From IMG/VR virus record IMGVR_UViG_3300031992_000011: a stretch of 64,000 nucleotides of DNA; one strand, written 5' to 3'. The notes beneath the pieces were generated by a model that made no database searches, was not told the origin of the DNA, and saw nothing but the letters and a program-made list of their open reading frames with translations. Both the position numbers and the translations under genes were made by a program. Source of the DNA: a virus. Taxonomy: Duplodnaviria > Caudoviricetes. Of this stretch, positions 6,441 through 64,000 are shown one piece after another; position 1 is the stretch's first letter, and each line of letters opens with the position of its first letter.

Positions 6441-7574
6441 ATGGCACAACCAGTAAAAAAAGGAGCGGGAATCAAGGGCAGAAAGACAACCGCGGAAAAA
6501 ATTGCTGCGCTGAAAGCATTTAAAGAAGAGAACAATCTCGCTGGTATCAAAGAGAAAGAACTTTCGTGGTATATTTTACCGGAAGCGTTCCAAAACGCGA
6601 CACGAATGCCGGGTATTGCCCGTGGATACGTTACCGCTGTTAGGGGTCACTCAAACACTAACAAGTCAACCATAAAGTTGGAATTGATAAAAGCGGTGAT
6701 ACACGCAGGTGATTTACCGGTGGTTTTTGAGTTGGAAAACAATTTTGCGTGGGAACATGCGAAATCAATCGGTGTTGACGTCAATGAATATGTCGACGAA
6801 GATACCGGTGAGGTTGAATATGGACCGGGTGACACGATGTTGTATTATGACACCGCAAAACTTTATGAATTGTACGGTAAATTTGATCACGAGCACGGAA
6901 AGTGGTTAAATAAACCTGCAAGAGAAACCTATGTAATTGAGGATGTCGCAATGTGCATCAAAGACCTTGTGCGGAAACAGCGGGAAGGTGTGTTACCGTT
7001 CAATCTCGTGTTTATCATCGACAGTATCGGTGTAGGTGATTGTTATAGGGCAGCAGAGAAGAACTCTTCAAATAACATGTGGTACGCCGGCGCCGTGTCT
7101 GTGGCATTTAACACAATTGTGAACGACCTGATTCCTTCATCAAGAAACGTGAATTCGGAATACACGAACACGATGTTTGTCGTAAACAAGATATGGGTTG
7201 AAACAACCGCTATCGGTCTACCTTCTGCAAAGAGCAAGGGAGGTGCAAGTTTGACATATGCCTATCGTTGTATCCTGTTCACTGGTGGGGTCGCGTCCGG
7301 AAGCGTCAAGGCACTTACCGCTACATCCGGTGGCAAAGAGTTCCAATATGGGACTAAGGCCAAGATAAAAGTTGAGAAAAACCATATTACAAACATAACA
7401 TATAGCGGAGAACTGTGTTCTACACAACATGGATTATGGGACCCGAATAAACTAGATGAGTATAAAAAGAAATACGCGTCGTTTATCAAGGAAAAACTCG
7501 CTGAAGTGAATAAGGTTCCGATTGAGGATATTGGCGAAATCACGTATTCAGAAAATGACATCGTAGATTCGTAA
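6441..7574 (+). CDS. RecA/UvsX-like recombinase
   Basis: GIARGYVTAVRGHSNTNKST (variant Walker A), FIIDSIG (Walker B), KGGASL, KIKVEKNH. Confidence 0.8.
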   Translation: MAQPVKKGAGIKGRKTTAEKIAALKAFKEENNLAGIKEKELSWYILPEAFQNATRMPGIARGYVTAVRGHSNTNKSTIKLELIKAVIHAGDLPVVFELENNFAWEHAKSIGVDVNEYVDEDTGEVEYGPGDTMLYYDTAKLYELYGKFDHEHGKWLNKPARETYVIEDVAMCIKDLVRKQREGVLPFNLVFIIDSIGVGDCYRAAEKNSSNNMWYAGAVSVAFNTIVNDLIPSSRNVNSEYTNTMFVVNKIWVETTAIGLPSAKSKGGASLTYAYRCILFTGGVASGSVKALTATSGGKEFQYGTKAKIKVEKNHITNITYSGELCSTQHGLWDPNKLDEYKKKYASFIKEKLAEVNKVPIEDIGEITYSENDIVDS

Positions 7575-9661: not shown

Positions 9662-10564
9662 GTGGTTACCGAATTAGCAACAAACGAAAAAAAGCAAAAG
9701 GCGAAAGCGGCTAACGAAGCCTTTTGGGAGAGATTTCAATTCCTGCTGTGGATAAATGACGACATCATATGTCAACGATACTTCCGTATCAACGGATACA
9801 ACAGAGACATGTGCCACACGGAAGAGTTTACAACCGTCATGGAAAACTGTGTCAGGATGATACAGGATGACCTGAAGTACAAGAGTTTCATACTTCAGTC
9901 ATACACGTGCGACTGCCCAATCAAGTTGACCGGATTTGTCAACGATCCGGCAACTGACAGCGATGTGTTCTTATTGTCAAACCCGAATATCCGCGGCAAT
10001 GTGACACTATCCGACGGACGCACTGTCGAAAAGACTTATTTCGAATACCCCGAGGGGACACCGGAAATGCACTACATGGACAACGACACTCTCGAACCGT
10101 GGGACGTAGTGTTCAAATTCCAGTTCCTCATTGATGACAAGACTGTGTATGAGCGCATATGGGACGGGACACAGTACCCGAAATACGTCCGCAACAGTGT
10201 GGACTTGACCAACAGCAACGCGGCATACCGCGACAAAGACCCTCAGAACCTGAATTTCTCCGCATCACTGCAGAAGCATATGACTTTCGGCAGAAAAGAC
10301 CTCACTTACCACATCATCAAGAGCATAATCGGGGTGCTCAGTTGGAAACAGGAGGACTATGAGAGAGAATCCACACTGTATGACACCTATGGTGACACGA
10401 CTTATGCGCTAAGGCCGCAGAACAAGTCATACATTGACGGATGGAGGTCTGCAACCAATCAGAAGACGAGGAAGCATGCCGCACAGATAGACAAATCCGA
10501 GCGATACTCCCAATACGGAGGTATGACCGAGGGCGAGTGGAACTATATCGAAAAGCGCCTATAG
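9662..10564 (+). CDS. Hypothetical protein
   Basis: 300 aa ORF, GTG start. Confidence 0.7.
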   Translation: MVTELATNEKKQKAKAANEAFWERFQFLLWINDDIICQRYFRINGYNRDMCHTEEFTTVMENCVRMIQDDLKYKSFILQSYTCDCPIKLTGFVNDPATDSDVFLLSNPNIRGNVTLSDGRTVEKTYFEYPEGTPEMHYMDNDTLEPWDVVFKFQFLIDDKTVYERIWDGTQYPKYVRNSVDLTNSNAAYRDKDPQNLNFSASLQKHMTFGRKDLTYHIIKSIIGVLSWKQEDYERESTLYDTYGDTTYALRPQNKSYIDGWRSATNQKTRKHAAQIDKSERYSQYGGMTEGEWNYIEKRL

Positions 10565-12226: not shown

Positions 12227-14425
12227 ATGGACGTCAAAAAAAGGGACAAGACTTTGGAGAAATTTAATTTCTCTAAGATAGAAAACGCTGTTAAAAAGGC
12301 ATTTAGCGAAACGAACGTTGATATGCCGGAAGATGTTCTGCAATGCCTCAAGGACAAATACGACGAGAGTTCAGATACTGTCGTCGATGTCGAGGAAATA
12401 CAGGATAGTGTCGAAGACTGTCTGATGTCATACAGTCCGAAAGTGGCCAAGGCATATATCATATACCGGTATGAGCACAAGGTCATGCGCGAGAACAAGG
12501 ACAAGCTGTTCCGCGAGGTCGGAAGGAAACTCAAGGCCGAGGACGTGCAGAACCAGAATGCCAACGTTGACGAGTATTCATTCGGAGGAAGGATTGGCGA
12601 GGCGACAAGACTCGTGACCAAGGAATACGCGCTCAAGAACTGCATGACAAGAAAGTCGAGGAACAACCATTTGAACAATGAGATATACATCCATGACCTT
12701 GACAACTACGCCGTAGGAATGCACAATTGTTTAAGTGTTCCATTCGACGACCTTCTCGCCAACGGTTTCAGTGTGAGACAGACCGACATACGACCGGCGA
12801 ACAGTGTGGACACCGCAATGCAGCTGGTCGCGGTGTTGTTCCAGATTCAAAGTCAGTCGCAGTTCGGCGGGGTGTCCGCCACACATCTTGATTGGACAAT
12901 GGTTCCATATGTGCGAAAGTCATTCTTCAAGCATTTCAATGACGGACGCGAGTGGGTAAGCGGCAAGGAACGTCTGCCGAAGACAAGCAAAATCACCGAG
13001 ACGCCGATAGAGTCATGGAAAGATGTCGACAACAAGGCGTACGAATATGCGCTCGCACTGACACAAAGGGAGATAGACCAGTCAGTGGAAGGTCTTTACC
13101 ATAACCTCAACTCACTTCAGAGCAGAAGCGGAGACCAGCTGCCGTTCTCCTCAATAAACTACGGCACATGCACACTGACCGAAGGGCGTATGGTGATAAA
13201 GGCGCTGCTGGAAGGTTCGATAAACGGTGTCGGCAAGTTTCATCGAACACCGATTTTCCCGTGCGGAATATTCCAAATGATGTCCGGCGTGAACCGCAAA
13301 CCGGGAGAACCGAATTATGACATGTACAAACTCGCGCTACAGTCGACAGCGAAGCGGCTGTATCCGAATTACGCGAACTGTGATTGGAGCGGAAATGCCG
13401 GATATGACAGGAATGACCCGCGGACATATTTCTCGACAATGGGATGCCGTACAGCGAACGGTTTTGACATCAACGGGTTTGGTCAGCTCAAGGACGGCCG
13501 CGGCAACATATGTCCCGTGACAATCATCATGCCGAAAATCGCGATGCTCGCCAAGTCGTCAGTCGGAGAAAACGCGACAAAGGAAGAAACGGTGAACGCG
13601 TTCATGAGGATGCTTGACAAAAAGATAGGTGAAGCGAAAGATATGCTGCTCGAAAGGTTTGAATGGATTGCCAGCCAAAGCCCGTCGTCAGCAAAATTCA
13701 TGTGGGACAACAACACCATGGCCGGATATGTGCCGGAAGAAGGGATAAGGTCCGCGCTCAAGCACGGCACACTGTCGCTCGGACAGATAGGACTTGCCGA
13801 GACGCTCATCGCACTGATCGGGTGCGACCACACCAAACCCGAAGGAATGGAATTGGCCAAACGCATTGAGGGATTGTTCAAGAAGCGCTGCGCCGAGTAC
13901 AAGGAGAAATATCGGCTGAATTTCGGCGTGTACTACACTCCGGCCGAGAACCTGTGCTACACTTCAATGAAGAAATTCAAGGCTGAATACGGGGTGATAC
14001 CCGGCGTTTCCGACCACGAATACTTCACCAACTCGATGCATGTTCCGGTGTGGCACGAGATGACACCGTTCGAGAAGATAGACATCGAGTCGCAGCTCAC
14101 CGGATACTCTTCCGCCGGATGCATCACATATGTCGAACTTCCGAGTACGGCAAAGCACAACATCGAGGCGCTTGAGACGATAGTAAACTACGCAATGGAC
14201 AAGGACATACCTTACTTCGCGATAAACGTGCCTGTCGACACCTGCGAGGACTGCGGATACACCGACGAACTCGGCGAGGTGTGCCCGGTGTGCGGAAGTA
14301 GAAACATATCAAGACTAAGGAGAGTGACCGGGTATCTCACCGGCAGCTACAAGCAAGCCTTTAATTACGGAAAACAAAAAGAAACCGAAGAACGTGTCAA
14401 ACATGATGCCATAACCCTTGAGTGA
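12227..14425 (+). CDS. nrdD: Anaerobic ribonucleoside-triphosphate reductase with ATP cone
   Basis: VKKRD ATP cone, YIHDLD, MGCRT, PAENL, YFTNS, CxxC/CxxC, RRVTGYL glycyl radical motif. Confidence 0.96.
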   Translation: MDVKKRDKTLEKFNFSKIENAVKKAFSETNVDMPEDVLQCLKDKYDESSDTVVDVEEIQDSVEDCLMSYSPKVAKAYIIYRYEHKVMRENKDKLFREVGRKLKAEDVQNQNANVDEYSFGGRIGEATRLVTKEYALKNCMTRKSRNNHLNNEIYIHDLDNYAVGMHNCLSVPFDDLLANGFSVRQTDIRPANSVDTAMQLVAVLFQIQSQSQFGGVSATHLDWTMVPYVRKSFFKHFNDGREWVSGKERLPKTSKITETPIESWKDVDNKAYEYALALTQREIDQSVEGLYHNLNSLQSRSGDQLPFSSINYGTCTLTEGRMVIKALLEGSINGVGKFHRTPIFPCGIFQMMSGVNRKPGEPNYDMYKLALQSTAKRLYPNYANCDWSGNAGYDRNDPRTYFSTMGCRTANGFDINGFGQLKDGRGNICPVTIIMPKIAMLAKSSVGENATKEETVNAFMRMLDKKIGEAKDMLLERFEWIASQSPSSAKFMWDNNTMAGYVPEEGIRSALKHGTLSLGQIGLAETLIALIGCDHTKPEGMELAKRIEGLFKKRCAEYKEKYRLNFGVYYTPAENLCYTSMKKFKAEYGVIPGVSDHEYFTNSMHVPVWHEMTPFEKIDIESQLTGYSSAGCITYVELPSTAKHNIEALETIVNYAMDKDIPYFAINVPVDTCEDCGYTDELGEVCPVCGSRNISRLRRVTGYLTGSYKQAFNYGKQKETEERVKHDAITLE

Positions 14426-58038: not shown

Positions 58039-58109
58039 GCGTCCATAGCACAGAGGCAGTGCACCGGCTTCCCAAGCCGGGGACGCCAGTTCGATTCTGG
58101 TTGGACGCT
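58039..58109 (+). tRNA. tRNA-Gly(CCC)
   Basis: Cloverleaf GCGTCCA/TGGACGC, loop TTCCCAA. Confidence 0.9.
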
Positions 58110-58116
58110 CAAGTAC

Positions 58117-58327
58117 TGCGAGTATAGACCACTTAGTAGTGACCGGTGTAAGCGCTTGGGTAGCTCGAGGCAATGTCCGAGCGTGCAGTCGTGGGGCAAC
58201 GTGCACCCTCAGACCGGTGAAACGTGTTGGTGCTTGTGAAGGCCCATACGAGGTGGCGCAACAGATACGGTTCCCGCGTGGGGAATATCCAAGCCCGTGA
58301 CAGCCGCCGCTCGTCAATTTACTCGCA
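58117..58327 (+). ncRNA. Unassigned approx. 210 nt structured RNA
   Basis: Terminal helix TGCGAGTA/TACTCGCA, long-range GCTTGGGTA/TATCCAAGC, several internal hairpins. Confidence 0.6.
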
Positions 58328-58330
58328 TAT

Positions 58331-58405
58331 AGGGAAGTGGCTCAGTCCGGTTAGAGCGCTTGCTTTGGGAGCAAGAGGCCGCAGGTTCGAATCCTGTTTT
58401 CCCTA
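58331..58405 (+). tRNA. tRNA-Pro(TGG)
   Basis: Cloverleaf, loop TTTGGGA. Confidence 0.9.
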
Positions 58406-58419
58406 CAAAAAAAAATAAC

Positions 58420-58493
58420 ACTCCAGTGGCGCAATTGGTCAGCGTGTCTGTCTTATACACAGTAGGTTGTAGGTTCAAGTCCTACCTGGAGTA
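58420..58493 (+). tRNA. tRNA-Ile(TAT)
   Basis: ACTCCAG/CTGGAGT, loop CTTATAC. Confidence 0.8.
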
Positions 58494-58517
58494 CATTTTT
58501 GAAAAACAATCAGCATT

Positions 58518-58736
58518 ATGCCGAAACTTAATCTAAATGAAGTACTGAATGATGACGATGTCATCAAGGCGTTGAACCCTAAAGAATGGGAGTTCAGGTG
58601 TGGCAGTTGTGACAACTTCTGTGACATCTTCGGGAGATATTCCGAGTTCAAAACCATTGAAAGATGCCCGTTCGAGGGGAAGGTGACGTGGGACACTGAT
58701 TGGAGAAAGATTGGCTGTAAGTGCTATTGGAACTAA
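58518..58736 (+). CDS. Small Cys-rich protein within tRNA array
   Basis: 72 aa, CGSCDNFC..C..CKC. Confidence 0.55.
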   Translation: MPKLNLNEVLNDDDVIKALNPKEWEFRCGSCDNFCDIFGRYSEFKTIERCPFEGKVTWDTDWRKIGCKCYWN

Positions 58737-58739
58737 AAT

Positions 58740-58813
58740 GGTCCTGTAACTCAGTTGGTCAGAGTGCCTGACTCATAATCAGGGAGTCGTAGGTTCAAGC
58801 CCTACCGGGACCA
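58740..58813 (+). tRNA. tRNA-CAT (elongator Met or Ile2)
   Basis: GGTCCTG/CGGGACC, loop CTCATAA. Confidence 0.85.
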
Positions 58814-58822
58814 CAATGCAAT

Positions 58823-58896
58823 TGCGGGGTGGAGCAGATGGTCAGCTCGTTTGGCTCATAACCAAAAGGTCGCAGGTCCGAGTCCTGCCCCCGCAA
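58823..58896 (+). tRNA. tRNA-Met(CAT), initiator-like
   Basis: TGCGGGG TG GAGC 5' end typical of fMet tRNAs, loop CTCATAA. Confidence 0.8.
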
Positions 58897-58960
58897 CAAC
58901 ACAGTCTGCCGATAAGAGATGAACACCTATTTATGTCTATAGCAGATATAGCATTGAAAT

Positions 58961-59689
58961 ATGAATAGGATAAGGCAAATCATCAACGAGGCAGTCCGAG
59001 AGACCTTGTTGTTTGAAGCGATCAAGTCAAGTTGGTTGAAAAGGTTCTTCGCCGAGCATGGAGGTGTGGACAGCACTATGCACAACGACTACTTGGGCGA
59101 CGCACAGGATGAGGATATCGAGGACGTGAAGGTTTTTCCTTCAAAGAAGGAAGCGTTTGAAATGGCGTGGAAACTGAGACGTGAGCACATAACCGGTTTT
59201 CGTAAAGTATATGTCGCCAAGGACGGCACGGCAGTTCTTGTCGTGTACAAGGATTCTGTAAAATCAAACCCGACATGGGGCGGAGAAGCGTCCGCAAAGA
59301 CAGCCGACAGGTATTGGAGAAACGGTGAAAGGTTCACTTCGTACAATCCTGAAACCGGTCAGAGAGTACCCGGATACCGTGACGACAGGGGCACCTACAC
59401 ATACAGTGACGGAAAGTCAAGCGAAGGTGCCGCCAGATTCGGCATAAGGAATTCGGACGATTACCGTAGACATGTGGCGTTCGTCAGAGATCAGAGGGCG
59501 AAGGCAAAACAGAACGGAAAAGAGGATGATTTCAACCGTTGGCGTGATGCAGAAGCCAAGAGAGTCAAAGACTACGCTGAAGAAAAGAAGAAGGAACGTG
59601 ATTGGCAGAGGGAATATTTCGGGCTCAGTGACCGTGAGCGAGAACGCAGACTGTCAAGACCTGCCCCATTGGACAAGCGTTTCAAATAA
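58961..59689 (+). CDS. Hypothetical protein with IRQIINEAVRE N-terminal motif
   Basis: 242 aa within tRNA array, TATTTA upstream. Confidence 0.75.
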   Translation: MNRIRQIINEAVRETLLFEAIKSSWLKRFFAEHGGVDSTMHNDYLGDAQDEDIEDVKVFPSKKEAFEMAWKLRREHITGFRKVYVAKDGTAVLVVYKDSVKSNPTWGGEASAKTADRYWRNGERFTSYNPETGQRVPGYRDDRGTYTYSDGKSSEGAARFGIRNSDDYRRHVAFVRDQRAKAKQNGKEDDFNRWRDAEAKRVKDYAEEKKKERDWQREYFGLSDRERERRLSRPAPLDKRFK

Positions 59690-59738
59690 CACGAATGCGT
59701 TAAACGGCCGCGCCGACATGTCAGTGCGGTCATTTTAT

Positions 59739-59810
59739 GCCCCCTTAGCACAGCGGTAGTGCAGTTCACTTGTAATGAACAGGTCGTTGGTTCGAATCCG
59801 ACAGGGGGCT
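59739..59810 (+). tRNA. tRNA-Thr(TGT)
   Basis: Cloverleaf, loop CTTGTAA. Confidence 0.9.
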
Positions 59811-59902
59811 CAACATAGCAAGGTAACAACAAGGCGCGACTCCCCCAACCGCGCCGGTAACCCGCACGTAACAGCCGATAGGGGCGGCGACCTTGCCGAT
59901 AC

Positions 59903-59974
59903 GCGGATGTAGCACAACGGTTCGTGCACCAGCCTTCCAAGCTGGGGATGACGGTTCGATTCCGTTCATCCGCT
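59903..59974 (+). tRNA. tRNA-Gly(TCC)
   Basis: Cloverleaf, loop CTTCCAA. Confidence 0.9.
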
Positions 59975-60103
59975 CAAAAAATGGGCTGAAATTTGTGGGC
60001 ATAAAGTTAAAACCTCAAGACGTTGAAAGCAGCAGTATAGGGACTGCTATTGGCGGTCAGATTAACCGTAGCCACATCTTGCAAGAGTTTCGGCCTTTAA
60101 TAT

Positions 60104-60181
60104 AGCGGAGTGGAGCAGAAGCAGCTCGTCAGGTTCATACCCTGAAGGTCGTCTCAAACGGTGCAAGTCCTACCTCCGCCA
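60104..60181 (+). tRNA. Aberrant initiator-like tRNA(CAT) with disrupted T stem
   Basis: AGCGGAG/CTCCGCC (1:72 mismatch), loop TTCATAC, extra CTCAAAC in T stem, T loop TGCAAGT. Confidence 0.55.
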
Positions 60182-60327
60182 CTAAAATATGGGATTCTAC
60201 ACAGAGTATTCTTTTAAGTAGATGCATATGCTTACTAGGATATTGGGTGGTATTAGATTTTGAAACTGCAGATAATCAAAATCTATTAGGAGGTTCGAGC
60301 CATCTGTTTCCCACAAAATTCAAAAAT

Positions 60328-60401
60328 GGTGCGTTAGTTCAGTTGGTTAGAATGCCTGCCTGTCACGCAGGAGGTCACGGGTCCGAGTCCCGTACGCACC
60401 G
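60328..60401 (+). tRNA. tRNA-Asp(GTC)
   Basis: Cloverleaf, loop CTGTCAC. Confidence 0.9.
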
Positions 60402-60455
60402 CTTCTTGATTGTTTGAATGAGTGGTTTGGGTCGTGTGAGCGCCCAGACCTTTTT

Positions 60456-60529
60456 GCTCCCTTAGCTCAGTTGGATAGAGCGTGAGGTTCCTAACCCCAA
60501 GGTCATGTGTTCGAGCCACATAGGGAGTA
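60456..60529 (+). tRNA. tRNA-Arg(CCT)
   Basis: Cloverleaf, loop TTCCTAA. Confidence 0.85.
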
Positions 60530-60533
60530 CTAT

Positions 60534-60619
60534 GGATGGGTGGCAGAGTTGGTCGATTGCACCGGTCTTGAAAACCGGCGGCCCGCAAGGGTCCGGGGGT
60601 TCGAATCCCTCCTCATCCG
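60534..60619 (+). tRNA. tRNA-Ser(TGA)
   Basis: Long variable arm, loop CTTGAAA. Confidence 0.9.
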
Positions 60620-60626
60620 CATAACA

Positions 60627-60710
60627 GCGACAGTGGCGGAACTGGTAGACGCGCCACCTTGAGGGGGTGGTGGGCACACGCCCGTGAAGGTTCGAGTCCT
60701 TTCTGTCGCA
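60627..60710 (+). tRNA. tRNA-Leu(GAG)
   Basis: Long variable arm, loop TTGAGGG. Confidence 0.9.
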
Positions 60711-60754
60711 CAGGCCGGCCGCGAGACGCGCAACGGTCCGTGGCATGGGCATTT

Positions 60755-60828
60755 GCTGCCATCGTCTAATTGGTTAGGACGTCGCCCTTTCACGGCGGAG
60801 ATTACGGGTTCGAGTCCCGTTGGCAGTA
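60755..60828 (+). tRNA. tRNA-Glu(TTC)
   Basis: Cloverleaf, loop CTTTCAC. Confidence 0.9.
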
Positions 60829-60832
60829 CAAC

Positions 60833-60904
60833 GACTCCGTAACTCAGTGGTAGAGTATCGCACTTTTAATGCGAGAGTCGTGGGTTCAAGTCCCACCGGG
60901 GTCA
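60833..60904 (+). tRNA. tRNA-Lys(TTT)
   Basis: Cloverleaf, loop CTTTTAA. Confidence 0.9.
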
Positions 60905-60918
60905 CGAACGCGACAAGA

Positions 60919-60991
60919 GGGCCGCTAGCTCAGATGGTAGAGCGCTACATTCGCATTGTAGAGGTCACCGGTTCGAATCCGGTGCGGTCCA
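60919..60991 (+). tRNA. tRNA-Ala(CGC)
   Basis: G3:U70 pair, loop TTCGCAT. Confidence 0.9.
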
Positions 60992-61138
60992 CAGACAGAG
61001 CGTGTCGCGAACACGCACGCCATCGCACGAGAGGATTGGGGATGGTAACCCCGGATTGTGGAGGTCGTCTAACCAACGATAGAAGTGGCCGTCCGGTACA
61101 TAATCAACGGACAAACATCGTGACGCTTGGCATGTCAT

Positions 61139-61210
61139 GGGGTGATAGCTCAACGGTAGAGCAATTGGCTGTTAACCAATAGGCTGCAGGTTCGAATCCT
61201 GCTCACCCCG
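61139..61210 (+). tRNA. tRNA-Asn(GTT)
   Basis: Cloverleaf, loop CTGTTAA. Confidence 0.9.
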
Positions 61211-61284
61211 CAACTCAGAAGAACGGGCGAATCGCCCTGACAATGGGGATTGAACGGCACCGCCAAAAGTGGTGCCTTTTGCCG

Positions 61285-61368
61285 GGGAGCGTAACCGGTA
61301 ATTGGTAGCCGCACGGACTGTAAATCCGTTCCTTAATTGGACTGGTCGTTCGAGTCGACCCGCTCCCA
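61285..61368 (+). tRNA. tRNA-Tyr(GTA)
   Basis: Variable arm, loop CTGTAAA. Confidence 0.85.
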
Positions 61369-61379
61369 CAATGACTGTT

Positions 61380-61453
61380 CTTCCTGTAGCTCAACTGAAT
61401 AGAGCAATGCACTTCTAATGCATAGGTTCTGGGTTTGAGTCCCAGCGGGAAGA
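61380..61453 (+). tRNA. tRNA-Arg(TCT)
   Basis: Cloverleaf, loop CTTCTAA. Confidence 0.85.
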
Positions 61454-61462
61454 CTAATAACA

Positions 61463-61535
61463 AGGCGGTTAGCTCAGTTGGTAGAGTGGCGGTCTCCAAA
61501 ACCGCAGGTCGCACGTTCGAGCCGTGCACCGCCTG
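61463..61535 (+). tRNA. tRNA-Trp(CCA)
   Basis: Cloverleaf, loop CTCCAAA. Confidence 0.9.
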
Positions 61536-61543
61536 CAAAAAAA

Positions 61544-61633
61544 GGAAGCATACCCAAGTTGGTGAAGGGGGCGGCTTGCTAAGCCGCTAGGCCTCGGCGA
61601 CGGGGCGCGGAGGTTCGAGTCCTCCTGCTTCCG
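61544..61633 (+). tRNA. tRNA-Ser(GCT)
   Basis: Long variable arm, loop TTGCTAA. Confidence 0.9.
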
Positions 61634-61640
61634 CACAAAC

Positions 61641-61713
61641 AGGGTAGTAGCGCAGTTGGTAGCGCGCTACGTTCGGGACGTAGAGGTCGCAGGTTCGAAT
61701 CCTGTCTACCCTA
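61641..61713 (+). tRNA. tRNA-Pro(CGG)
   Basis: Cloverleaf, loop TTCGGGA. Confidence 0.9.
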
Positions 61714-61719
61714 CTTGAA

Positions 61720-61776
61720 TGTTAACAATTATTAACATGAAAAATTTGCAAGGTATATTTTTTTGTCGTACCTTTG
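61720..61776 (+). promoter_or_regulatory. Promoter of the ncRNA array with TGTTAA-N6-TTAACA palindrome
   Basis: Palindrome 61720-61737, TTTG 61745, TACCTTTG 61769-61776. Confidence 0.8.
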
Positions 61777-61782
61777 CACTTG

Positions 61783-61870
61783 AAAACAATGGTGAGTGAC
61801 AGGGTTACTTCGCATACAAACTGTTACAAGATTAAAAAGCAACGAACCCTTCGCATATCTTCCTTGTTTT
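61783..61870 (+). ncRNA. GTGAC/TACTTCG scaffold RNA 1 (no tRNA cargo)
   Basis: AAAACAA/TTGTTTT outer helix, AGTGAC, AGGGTT/AACCCT inner helix, TACTTCG. Confidence 0.65.
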
Positions 61871-61890
61871 TGTTCTTTGACATTCTTAAA

Positions 61891-62025
61891 ATGTGTGCAG
61901 TGACTGTGGCGGTTACTTCGTTGATTAGCTCATTTGGTAGAGCATAAGTTTATGGTACTTAGGGTAGATGGTTCGATTCCATCATCACAAAAGATTGTTT
62001 GCCGCCGCAAAATTTTCTCACACAT
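61891..62025 (+). ncRNA. Scaffold RNA 2 with nested tRNA-like body (anticodon ATG)
   Basis: ATGTGTG/CACACAT, AGTGAC, TGTGGCGG/CCGCCGCA, TACTTCG, D/AC/T arms 61926-61983. Confidence 0.7.
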
Positions 62026-62033
62026 AACTCATA

Positions 62034-62166
62034 TTCCGCATAGTGACGGGCGGTGTTACTTCGAATTATTTAGCGCAGTGGTTAGCGCATCACACTTTTA
62101 ATGCGAGAGTCGCCGGTTCGATTCCGGCAATGATTCTTTAAAAGCACCCCCATTTTTCTTGCGGAA
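62034..62166 (+). ncRNA. Scaffold RNA 3 with nested tRNA-Lys(TTT)-like body
   Basis: TTCCGCA/TGCGGAA, AGTGAC, GGGCGGTGT/GCACCCCC, TACTTCG, cloverleaf 62063-62136. Confidence 0.72.
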
Positions 62167-62173
62167 AAGCACA

Positions 62174-62298
62174 ACCGGTTGTGACGTATCTCGGTTACTT
62201 CGATACGTTGGTTCGAGTCCAACTTTGTCCGCCATACAATTGGACGAATAGTCAAGTGGTTAAGACAGAATTCTTTACCGAGGCGAGTTTCCACCGGT
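62174..62298 (+). ncRNA. Scaffold RNA 4 with circularly permuted tRNA (YrlA-like Y RNA architecture)
   Basis: ACCGGT/ACCGGT, GTGAC, TCTCGGT/ACCGAGG, TACTTCG, then T arm, closed acceptor stem, D arm. Confidence 0.72.
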
Positions 62299-62415
62299 AC
62301 AAAAAACGGTCTGCTTCAATGTAGATGGATTTTGTAGATGGTTTAACGTGCGGTGCGCTGTATATCAGTGTGCCGCTTTTTTGTTTGAGTATAAAAAGAC
62401 AACACAAAAAAAATA

Positions 62416-63021: not shown

Positions 63022-64000
63022 ATGCTATACGACGAAGATATAAAGGCGAAGGAACAAATAGTTGAAGATGCCAAGTTGGTGTTGAAACGCGAGTTTGTCG
63101 GTATTGACGACATCATTGACGGTGTAATGGAGAATGTGCGAACATGGTACATGTTTCCGAACCTGTACAACCGCCCGCTCATCATCAACCTGTTCGGAAT
63201 GACAGGTGTCGGCAAGACAAGTCTTGTGCAGCGCATATCCCAGCTGCTTGATTTGGAAAAGGACTACTATTATTTCAACTTTGGTGAGATAAGCGAATGT
63301 ACTGCGTGGGATATTGAAGAGAGAATAAATGACGAGATCAGCGACGAGAAATCGAACCGTGTTTTCGTGTATGATGAATTTCAGTACGCGTCTACCATTG
63401 CCGAAGATGGAACTGAGAGAGAAAAGAGAAGCGGACTTAAACCGTTCTGGGAACTTATGGACGCAGGAAAGATGCACAAGCGGGACTCGGTTTACCTGTA
63501 CAGTTCGTTATTCAGCACCGCCAATTATCTTATACGCATAAATAACGTGTGCAGAATACAACTTGAGAACGGCGCTTGGGTTAACCGCGACGAATGCCTC
63601 TCACATTTCGGCGAATACGAGATTTCCAGATTCAGCACAGTCCTCAACACAAGAGGCGCGAGCGGAGCCCCAACTGAACGACCGAATGCCATTGGAAAAA
63701 TTGAAGCCGATGGAATGGGCAGTAATCTCCCAAACAACATGCCGAGCAAGGGAAGCATGCAATCATTCATATTGACAGCGGACACATTCTCCACAATCGT
63801 AAGGCGGTCTCGCAGGAGCAGAAGGGACACTGACAGTTACATAGAACTCTTCAACGAGTTTTGCACATACGATATAGACCAACTGATCGCCCGGATTGTC
63901 GACGTGTACAACATGGCGTGCAAGGGATTTGATCTGGATTTTCACAATTCTCTCATCTTTGTCTTGGCGAACCTTGACGAGGCGTACAACATGACGTTCA
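63022..64000 (+). CDS. AAA+ ATPase (Clp-like), 3'-truncated; absent from ORF track
   Basis: Translated by hand: MLYDEDIK..REFVGIDDII..LFGMTGVGKT (Walker A)..FVYDEFQ (Walker B); open to window end. Confidence 0.8.
   Translation, partial: MLYDEDIKAKEQIVEDAKLVLKREFVGIDDIIDGVMENVRTWYMFPNLYNRPLIINLFGMTGVGKTSLVQRISQLLDLEKDYYYFNFGEISECTAWDIEERINDEISDEKSNRVFVYDEFQYASTIAEDGTEREKRSGLKPFWELMDAGKMHKRDSVYLYSSLFSTANYLIRINNVCRIQLENGAWVNRDECLSHFGEYEISRFSTVLNTRGASGAPTERPNAIGKIEADGMGSNLPNNMPSKGSMQSFILTADTFSTIVRRSRRSRRDTDSYIELFNEFCTYDIDQLIARIVDVYNMACKGFDLDFHNSLIFVLANLDEAYNMTF

What the first reader, a model, noticed from the sequence alone, without database searches (positions are those of the whole stretch)
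62174..62298. Circularly permuted tRNA with internal GCCA
Seen: the order is T arm (GTTGG TTCGAGT CCAAC, 62207-62223), 3' acceptor strand TTTGTCC, then GCCA-TACAATT, then 5' acceptor strand GGACGAA, TA, and D arm (GTC AAGTGGTTAA GAC). The scaffold helix replaces the anticodon arm. This is the YrlA topology. The discriminator+CCA is kept inside the loop closing the acceptor stem, although none of the 21 ordinary tRNA genes here encodes CCA. Inference: cleavage of that loop could expose a CCA end on a two-piece tRNA mimic.
Basis: partly seen in the sequence, partly recalled or inferred. Interest (0 to 1): 0.8.

Follow-up and report, generated by a model that had tools for sequence, protein, structure and literature searches.

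The report
Phage rotated tRNA mimic with CCA
A large gut-type phage encodes a 125-base RNA shaped like a tRNA written back to front and mounted on a conserved protein-docking stem; it is most likely a divergent Y RNA partner of the phage's own Ro60 ring protein, and it is probably cut open to expose a tRNA-like CCA end, a step already shown for one bacterial Y RNA.

Summary
At 62174-62298 the order is T arm, 7-bp acceptor stem closed by an 11-nt loop starting GCCA, then D arm, with no anticodon loop. It is the last of four tandem RNAs in their own Bacteroidota-type operon, all sharing a two-helix 'handle' with GTTACTTCG. Homologues are widespread: 49 of 53 viral records carrying one encode Ro60/TROVE. 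A sister strain has a compensatory A3-U70 to G3-C70 change. This phage's own Ro60 (545 aa) lies far away, on a contig of the same length as the window's. The in-register CCA is non-random but optional: 17 of 72 homologues (0.9 expected), 16 of them in loops of 9 nt or more. Verdict: a YrlA-like Y RNA with a divergent handle. It fails the Rfam YrlA cut-off (18 vs 69 bits) and lacks the GNCGAA(N)G motif. RNase P opening and trimming to CCA is likely (about 0.55) but has precedent in M. smegmatis YrlA. Expression, binding, cleavage and charging are untested. The scan reported the same design on other phage DNA (e1-5661993, e1-5647682, e1-4043237, e1-5642199).

The parts
61745..61776 (+). Bacteroidota-type promoter (TTTG, 20 nt, TAnnTTTG) heading the four-RNA operon
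   Evidence: 8 such sites in the window against 0.5 expected; identification of the motif type is from my own knowledge
61781..61873 (+). Handle unit 1: handle with a short unstructured insert (no tRNA part)
   Evidence: 32.6 bits; insert varies in the sister strain, handle kept
61889..62028 (+). Handle unit 2: handle enclosing a degenerate tRNA in normal order (61922-61987)
   Evidence: (tRNA 44.9 bits)
62034..62166 (+). Handle unit 3: handle enclosing a tRNA-Lys(UUU)-like body in normal order (62063-62137), no CCA
62174..62298 (+). Handle unit 4, the finding: YrlA-like RNA with a rotated tRNA core
62174..62179 (+). Outer helix P1, 5' strand (pairs with 62293-62298)
   Evidence: pair probability 0.7-1.0; covariation, 75% paired
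62178..62186 (+). Conserved 5' strand of the handle's internal loop, aligned with the YrlA GNCGAA(N)G position; putative Ro60 contact (inferred)
62190..62195 (+). Inner helix P2, 5' strand (pairs with 62277-62282)
   Evidence: pair probability 0.83-0.98; 83% paired
62194..62206 (+). GTTACTTCG motif (contains the YUAY of YrlA) and 5-nt variable region ending in C48
   Evidence: 4 copies in the window, all within 400 bp, 0.5 expected
62207..62223 (+). T arm
62224..62230 (+). Acceptor stem, 3' strand (positions 66-72)
62231..62241 (+). Loop closing the acceptor: G73, CCA (62232-62234), 7-nt spacer ending in U(-1)
62242..62248 (+). Acceptor stem, 5' strand (positions 1-7); predicted RNase P site just before 62242
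   Evidence: the site itself is inferred
62249..62270 (+). U8-A9, D arm (62251-62266), A26 and three bases able to pair with 62199-62201 as the top of an anticodon-like stem
   Evidence: the 3-bp top has low predicted probability
62277..62298 (+). 3' half of the handle: P2 3' strand, pyrimidine-rich loop strand, P1 3' strand
62350..62385 (+). Intrinsic terminator closing the operon
   Evidence: 11-pair stem and T run

Best explanation
The unit is a phage Y RNA of the YrlA design with a divergent Ro60-binding handle. (1) The four units are co-transcribed from the host-type promoter and cut apart (inferred). (2) The two-helix handle binds the phage's own Ro60/TROVE ring (inferred from co-occurrence). 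(3) The T-acceptor-D core folds into a tRNA elbow without an anticodon loop (covariation shown; 3D fold inferred from the YrlA crystal structure). (4) The 7-bp stem, RCCA and U(-1) make it a likely RNase P substrate: a cut before 62242 and exonuclease trimming of the 7-nt spacer would leave a nicked, two-piece RNA ending in CCA and still held by the handle (inferred; probability about 0.55). (5) Likely role: effector arm of a Ro60 particle in phage RNA surveillance and repair, tethering or decoying tRNA-binding proteins or PNPase during infection. It does not decode.
For: Ro60/TROVE in 49 of 53 viral records with a homologous unit, 13 of 14 near-complete ones. In bacterial genomes 12 of 17 permuted units have TROVE in the same 8-kb tile, against 0 of 37 ordinary tRNA-Tyr hits from the same scan. 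A complete 373-kb relative with 21 tRNAs has neither TROVE nor the handle. Own Ro60: P0348, 545 aa, TROVE above cut-off, DxSGS motif, on a 330,287-bp contig, the same length as for the window's proteins; a 98.9% identical copy is in the same sequencing run as the sister strain. Structure: 89% of cells paired against 62% in shuffles and at most 50% when slid. Sister strain: compensatory 3:70 change, GCCA kept, spacer one base longer, handle changes compatible with pairing. CCA in register in 17 of 72 distinct homologues (0.9 expected, maximum 6 in 20,000 shuffles); 16 of 32 in loops of 9 nt or more against 1 of 40 in shorter loops; no CCA out of register in long loops; at least 5 changes on the Ro60 tree. 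Precedent: M. smegmatis YrlA (PMC4201824); RCCA and U(-1) are RNase P determinants (PMC9433436); phage phiLo Ro60 binds phage RNAs and host PNPase (PMC12135203).
Against: Rfam YrlA score is 18 bits against 69. GNCGAA(N)G is absent here and present in only 2 of 80 family units. Ro60 is not within 4 kb: none in the window or the next 8.7 kb, and it is missing from the syntenic slot. Assignment of P0348 to this contig rests on equal contig length and the sister-strain run, not on reading the contig. The energy model favours a fold that buries CCA. About three quarters of homologues lack CCA, including those of the two closest syntenic relatives examined, G016 and G026. T-arm and acceptor pairing were part of my selection filter, so their covariation is partly circular; the handle helices were not selected.
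Confidence: 0.75

Rival explanations
1. Same Ro60-bound mimic, but it stays a closed loop. The GCCA is a relic of origin from a tandem tRNA pair (3' half of one gene, spacer, 5' half of the next), or it pairs with the D loop, and is never exposed.
For: Most described YrlA RNAs are not cut (PMC4201824; 10.1101/312249, which also gives the dimeric-tRNA origin model). 55 of 72 homologues lack CCA. 28 of 32 long loops begin N-C like tRNA gene ends. The minimum-energy fold pairs GCCA with the D loop. U(-1) is not significantly enriched in the CCA class (10 of 17 vs 22 of 55, p=0.26).
Against: This phage's own tRNA genes do not encode CCA, so a recent relic from its own array is unlikely. GCCA is kept while the stem and spacer change. 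CCA recurs in separate Ro60 clades.
Confidence: 0.35
2. After opening, the RNA is aminoacylated by an anticodon-independent synthetase (G73 with G1-C72, G2-C71 and A3-U70, as in this phage's two tRNA-Ser genes) and acts as a charged mimic.
For: 7-bp stem, G73 and CCA; same acceptor end as the two phage Ser tRNAs; G is the commonest discriminator in the CCA class, 8 of 17.
Against: The 3:70 pair differs in the sister strain; discriminators in the CCA class also include A, U and C; there is no separate long variable arm; charging has not been shown for any YrlA in the papers read.
Confidence: 0.12
3. A true permuted tRNA gene or a two-piece tmRNA that matures into a translating RNA.
For: Same strand order and internal CCA as two-piece tmRNA precursors (my own knowledge) and algal or archaeal permuted tRNAs.
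Against: No anticodon loop; no G3.U70; ARAGORN finds no tmRNA; only 125 nt; the handle is shared with three neighbours carrying other inserts.
Confidence: 0.02
4. A decayed tRNA duplication without function, or an orphan left behind after Ro60 moved away.
For: Ro60 is not adjacent; the handle motif is the most divergent among relatives; the anticodon arm present in most homologues is missing.
Against: Compensatory and pair-preserving changes between strains; intact promoter and terminator; intact Ro60 reading frame in both strains.
Confidence: 0.05

Closest known systems
YrlA Y RNA (Rfam RF02553; PMC4201824; structure 10.1101/312249), especially M. smegmatis YrlA
   Same: T-acceptor-D order, closed acceptor loop, no anticodon loop, terminal stem in place of the anticodon stem, YUAY before the T arm, Levitt pair, link to Ro60, several Y RNAs from one precursor. 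The M. smegmatis RNA has a 7-bp acceptor, is cut by RNase P and ends in CCA.
   Different: Divergent handle without GNCGAA(N)G; T and D stem sequences not the YrlA consensus; 18 vs 69 bits; the whole CCA is gene-encoded (M. smegmatis adds CA); Ro60 lies far away; the same handle carries four different inserts, two being whole tRNA bodies in normal order.
Thermus phage phiLo Ro60 with Yrl1/Yrl2 (PMC12135203; PDB 9KOP, 9L5Y)
   Same: Phage-encoded Ro60 with its own RNAs; the only solved structures matching P0348 (E 2e-14).
   Different: The phiLo RNAs were picked by a CGAA motif and do not match my model; only about 23% protein identity.
Bacillus phage G unit upstream of gp540 (JN638751, about 405190-405352)
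   Same: Same handle, permuted core, in-register ACCA and no anticodon arm (56.6 bits), about 2 kb from a TROVE gene, in a cultured phage.
   Different: 25-nt acceptor loop, A73, Firmicute host. PMC12135203 cites phage G's Ro60 to Chen 2014; whether this RNA is in their tables could not be checked.
Two-piece (permuted) tmRNA and permuted tRNAs of red algae and archaea
   Same: Rotated gene order, with the acceptor opened by RNase P and 3' trimming (tmRNA from my own knowledge; permuted tRNAs).
   Different: No tag reading frame, no alanine identity pair, no anticodon, no splice junction.

Membership tests
YrlA (RF02553) | T arm, acceptor stem-loop, D arm in that order inside a terminal stem | tested here: met
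YrlA (RF02553) | tRNA tertiary-core bases (U8, A14, G18, G19, A21, T loop, 15:48 pair) | tested here: met
   read from the sequence; G15:C48
YrlA (RF02553) | YUAY motif 5' of the T arm | tested here: met
   UUAC at 62195-62198, aligned to the model
YrlA (RF02553) | GNCGAA(N)G Ro-binding motif near the 5' end | tested here: not met
   a divergent motif stands in its place; 2 of 80 family units have it
YrlA (RF02553) | Conserved T-stem and D-stem sequences | tested here: not met
   alignment to the consensus
YrlA (RF02553) | Score at or above the Rfam gathering threshold (69 bits) | tested here: not met
   18 bits, E 0.17, full model length
YrlA (RF02553) | Within 4 kb of a Ro60 gene on the same strand | tested here: not met
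   no Ro60 in the window or the next 8.7 kb; Ro60 found elsewhere
Y RNA (broad) | Genome encodes a Ro60/TROVE protein | tested here: met
Y RNA (broad) | RNA is expressed and bound by Ro60 | not testable with these tools
YrlA (RF02553) | Pseudouridine 55 and dihydrouridine; RNase P cleavage where the stem is 7 bp | not testable with these tools
   sequence is permissive; needs the bench
Permuted tRNA genes (algal/archaeal) | Anticodon loop reconstituted in the mature RNA | tested here: not met
   no anticodon arm in this unit
Two-piece tmRNA | G3.U70 alanine pair and tag reading frame | tested here: not met
   A3-U70 or G3-C70; no tmRNA call

The most novel reading that the evidence does not exclude
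A subclass of phage Y RNAs is selected to be opened by host RNase P into a CCA-ended, chargeable, anticodon-less tRNA mimic held on a Ro60 ring. It would be used against host defences that attack or sense tRNA ends, and would be one of a set of interchangeable tRNA-shaped inserts plugged into one protein-binding handle.
Probability: 0.12. Interest if true: 0.8.

Novelty: new variant of a known kind. Interest (0 to 1): 0.45.

Why it matters
The role of the tRNA-like arm of bacterial Y RNAs is an open question, and only one of them is known to be opened and given a CCA end. This family shows two classes on one handle: sealed short loops, and long loops with in-register CCA. That makes the question testable, and a cultured phage (Bacillus phage G) carries a unit of the same architecture. 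It also shows that the Rfam YrlA model misses a widespread phage and bacterial branch. The design and the processing route themselves are known, which limits the surprise.

Tried and rejected
No whole genome is held for the window. Exact-sequence scan of IMG/VR found nothing. The first pattern required GCCA and was circular; all CCA counts come from patterns without it. The metagenome scan gave chance hits only. The genome scan was dominated by tRNA-Tyr and coding matches, which I used as a control. Phage blastn hit only tRNAs. Walking downstream to about +15 kb found RlaP but no TROVE. P0017, P0011 and P0121 belong to other phages. Direct look-up of P0348 was not on record. No handle unit lies within 10 kb of the sister strain's Ro60 gene. 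The Ro60 tree is the quick version; the careful search did not finish, and L027 (5-nt loop with UCCA) was labelled as lacking CCA in it. The Chen 2014 supplements and three reviews were not held. The idea that 58115-58328 is a phage RNase P RNA found no Rfam support.

Full report
Observation. The tRNA core bases are present, including the G15:C48 pair. There is no anticodon loop. None of the 21 ARAGORN genes encodes CCA. The arrangement occurs once in the window and never in 60 shuffled windows. Single-strand folding does not favour the cloverleaf: it lies 2.6 kcal/mol above a fold in which GCCA pairs with the D loop. The case for the cloverleaf is therefore comparative.

Context. The window is part of a 330,287-bp contig of a large tailed phage (UvsX, DnaB and baseplate genes; a Gp23-type capsid gene in the sister strain). 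Bacteroidota-type promoters are enriched, 8 against 0.5 expected (the motif type is from my own knowledge). GTTACTTCG occurs four times in 64 kb, all between 61804 and 62202. It marks four tandem units between a promoter (61745-61776) and a terminator (62350-62385). All share a two-helix handle and differ in the insert: none, a degenerate tRNA, a tRNA-Lys body, and the rotated core studied here.

Selection on structure. A sister strain, about 97% identical, changes both partners of acceptor pair 3:70 (A-U to G-C), varies T-loop position 59, adds one base to the spacer and keeps GCCA. Its handle changes keep pairing. Across 41 homologues aligned without structure, 89% of cells pair, against 62% in shuffles and at most 50% when partners are slid. 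T-arm and acceptor pairing were part of my filter, so that part is circular. The handle helices (75% and 83% paired) were not selected.

Partner. Of 53 viral records with a homologous unit, 49 encode TROVE/Ro60. In bacterial genomes 12 of 17 units have it in the same 8-kb tile, against 0 of 37 tRNA-Tyr controls. A complete relative with 21 tRNAs lacks both gene and handle; this is a single case. In syntenic relatives Ro60 stands just before the tRNA array, about 5-21 kb from the unit. That slot is empty here and in the sister strain. An unchecked scan note (e1-5674829) put a 1638-nt TROVE gene about 69 kb before the window. I tested it: a length-bounded search returned P0348, 545 aa, whose longest contig is 330,287 bp, with TROVE above cut-off and a DxSGS motif. 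A 98.9% identical protein lies among methyltransferase genes in the sister strain's run. So the phage very probably has its own Ro60, moved away from the RNAs. The distance itself I could not check.

The internal CCA. With patterns that did not ask for CCA, it stands at positions 74-76 in 8 of 37 viral units (0.7 expected) and in 17 of 72 distinct units of a wider set (0.9 expected, maximum 6 in 20,000 shuffles). The family splits by loop length: 16 of 32 loops of 9 nt or more carry it, against 1 of 40 shorter loops, and no CCA in a long loop is out of register. The trait needs at least five changes on a quick Ro60 tree. The units are not independent, so these counts overstate the significance. 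The discriminator varies (G 8, A 5, U 3, C 1), which argues against one amino acid. Most homologues keep an anticodon arm after the D arm; this unit does not, and neither does the unit in Bacillus phage G, which has in-register ACCA.

Mechanism. Shown: the anatomy, covariation, operon, co-occurrence with Ro60 and non-random CCA. Inferred: transcription; Ro60 binding at the handle; a tRNA-like elbow as in the YrlA crystal structure (10.1101/312249); RNase P cutting before 62242, helped by the 7-bp stem, RCCA and U(-1) (PMC9433436); and trimming to CCA. The result would be a nicked two-piece mimic that cannot decode. The likeliest role is as the effector arm of a Ro60 particle in RNA surveillance and repair. 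An RlaP nucleotidyltransferase gene lies about 10 kb downstream, and phage phiLo Ro60 recruits host PNPase (PMC12135203). I put the Ro60-partner reading at 0.75, opening to CCA at about 0.55, and charging at about 0.12.

Comparison. It works like YrlA but is not filed as a member: 18 bits against 69, no GNCGAA(N)G motif (2 of 80 units), non-consensus T and D stems, and no Ro60 within 4 kb. The proposed cleavage is what was shown for M. smegmatis YrlA, which has a 7-bp stem, is cut by RNase P and gains CA (PMC4201824). What differs is the handle, the fully encoded CCA and the interchangeable inserts. I found no paper describing this handle in five searches; the library lacks key reviews and the Chen 2014 tables. 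The scan has reported the same or a similar design on other phages; I do not count those notes as support.

Verdict. Real, under selection, and a new variant of a known kind. Interest 0.45.

Noticed in passing
window 61745-62385: Four RNAs with one handle and four different inserts form their own operon; two enclose whole tRNA bodies in normal order, and ARAGORN miscalls one as a free tRNA-Lys.
   Followed up: partly
window 58115-58328: About 215-nt strongly folding stretch between tRNA-Gly and tRNA-Pro (-80.5 kcal/mol), 98.6% kept in the sister strain, no Rfam match, no homologue among fetched loci.
   Followed up: partly
window 60993-61138: Non-coding gap with several hairpins between tRNA-Ala and tRNA-Asn; unexplained.
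   Followed up: no
window 60104-60181: Degenerate initiator-tRNA-like sequence with a disrupted T arm (Rfam tRNA 31.5 bits; missed by ARAGORN).
   Followed up: no
window tRNA genes 58039-61714: All 20 free tRNA genes encode C74 after the discriminator, but none the full CCA. Three of five relatives encode a PF01743 CCA-adding-type enzyme.
   Followed up: partly
L251:1538-1693; L299, L300, L293, L294, L302 near 9870-9980: In several phages a handle unit sits directly upstream of the Ro60 start codon, which could allow self-regulation.
   Followed up: no
L003:11413-11567 and most IMG/VR homologues: Many units keep a full anticodon arm after the D arm, with varied anticodons; others place the anticodon loop before the T arm. 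The handle can thus be attached at several points of the tRNA circle.
   Followed up: partly
L331:5303-5465 and 6780-7440, 12885-12956: Cultured Bacillus phage G has a permuted unit with in-register ACCA and at least five further handle units around gp540.
   Followed up: partly
L330:4256-4330: crAss-like phage cr111_1 has a handle unit beside a Ro60 gene 56% identical to P0348.
   Followed up: no
L327:10001-11638: This lineage's Ro60 lies among methyltransferase genes near the capsid gene, not in the slot before the tRNA array used by relatives; both settings have an N6-methyltransferase gene just downstream.
   Followed up: partly
window 63022-64000: Start of a 702-aa AAA plus M41-peptidase gene, followed by DnaJ, NUDIX, IF3 and sigma-70 genes.
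   Followed up: no
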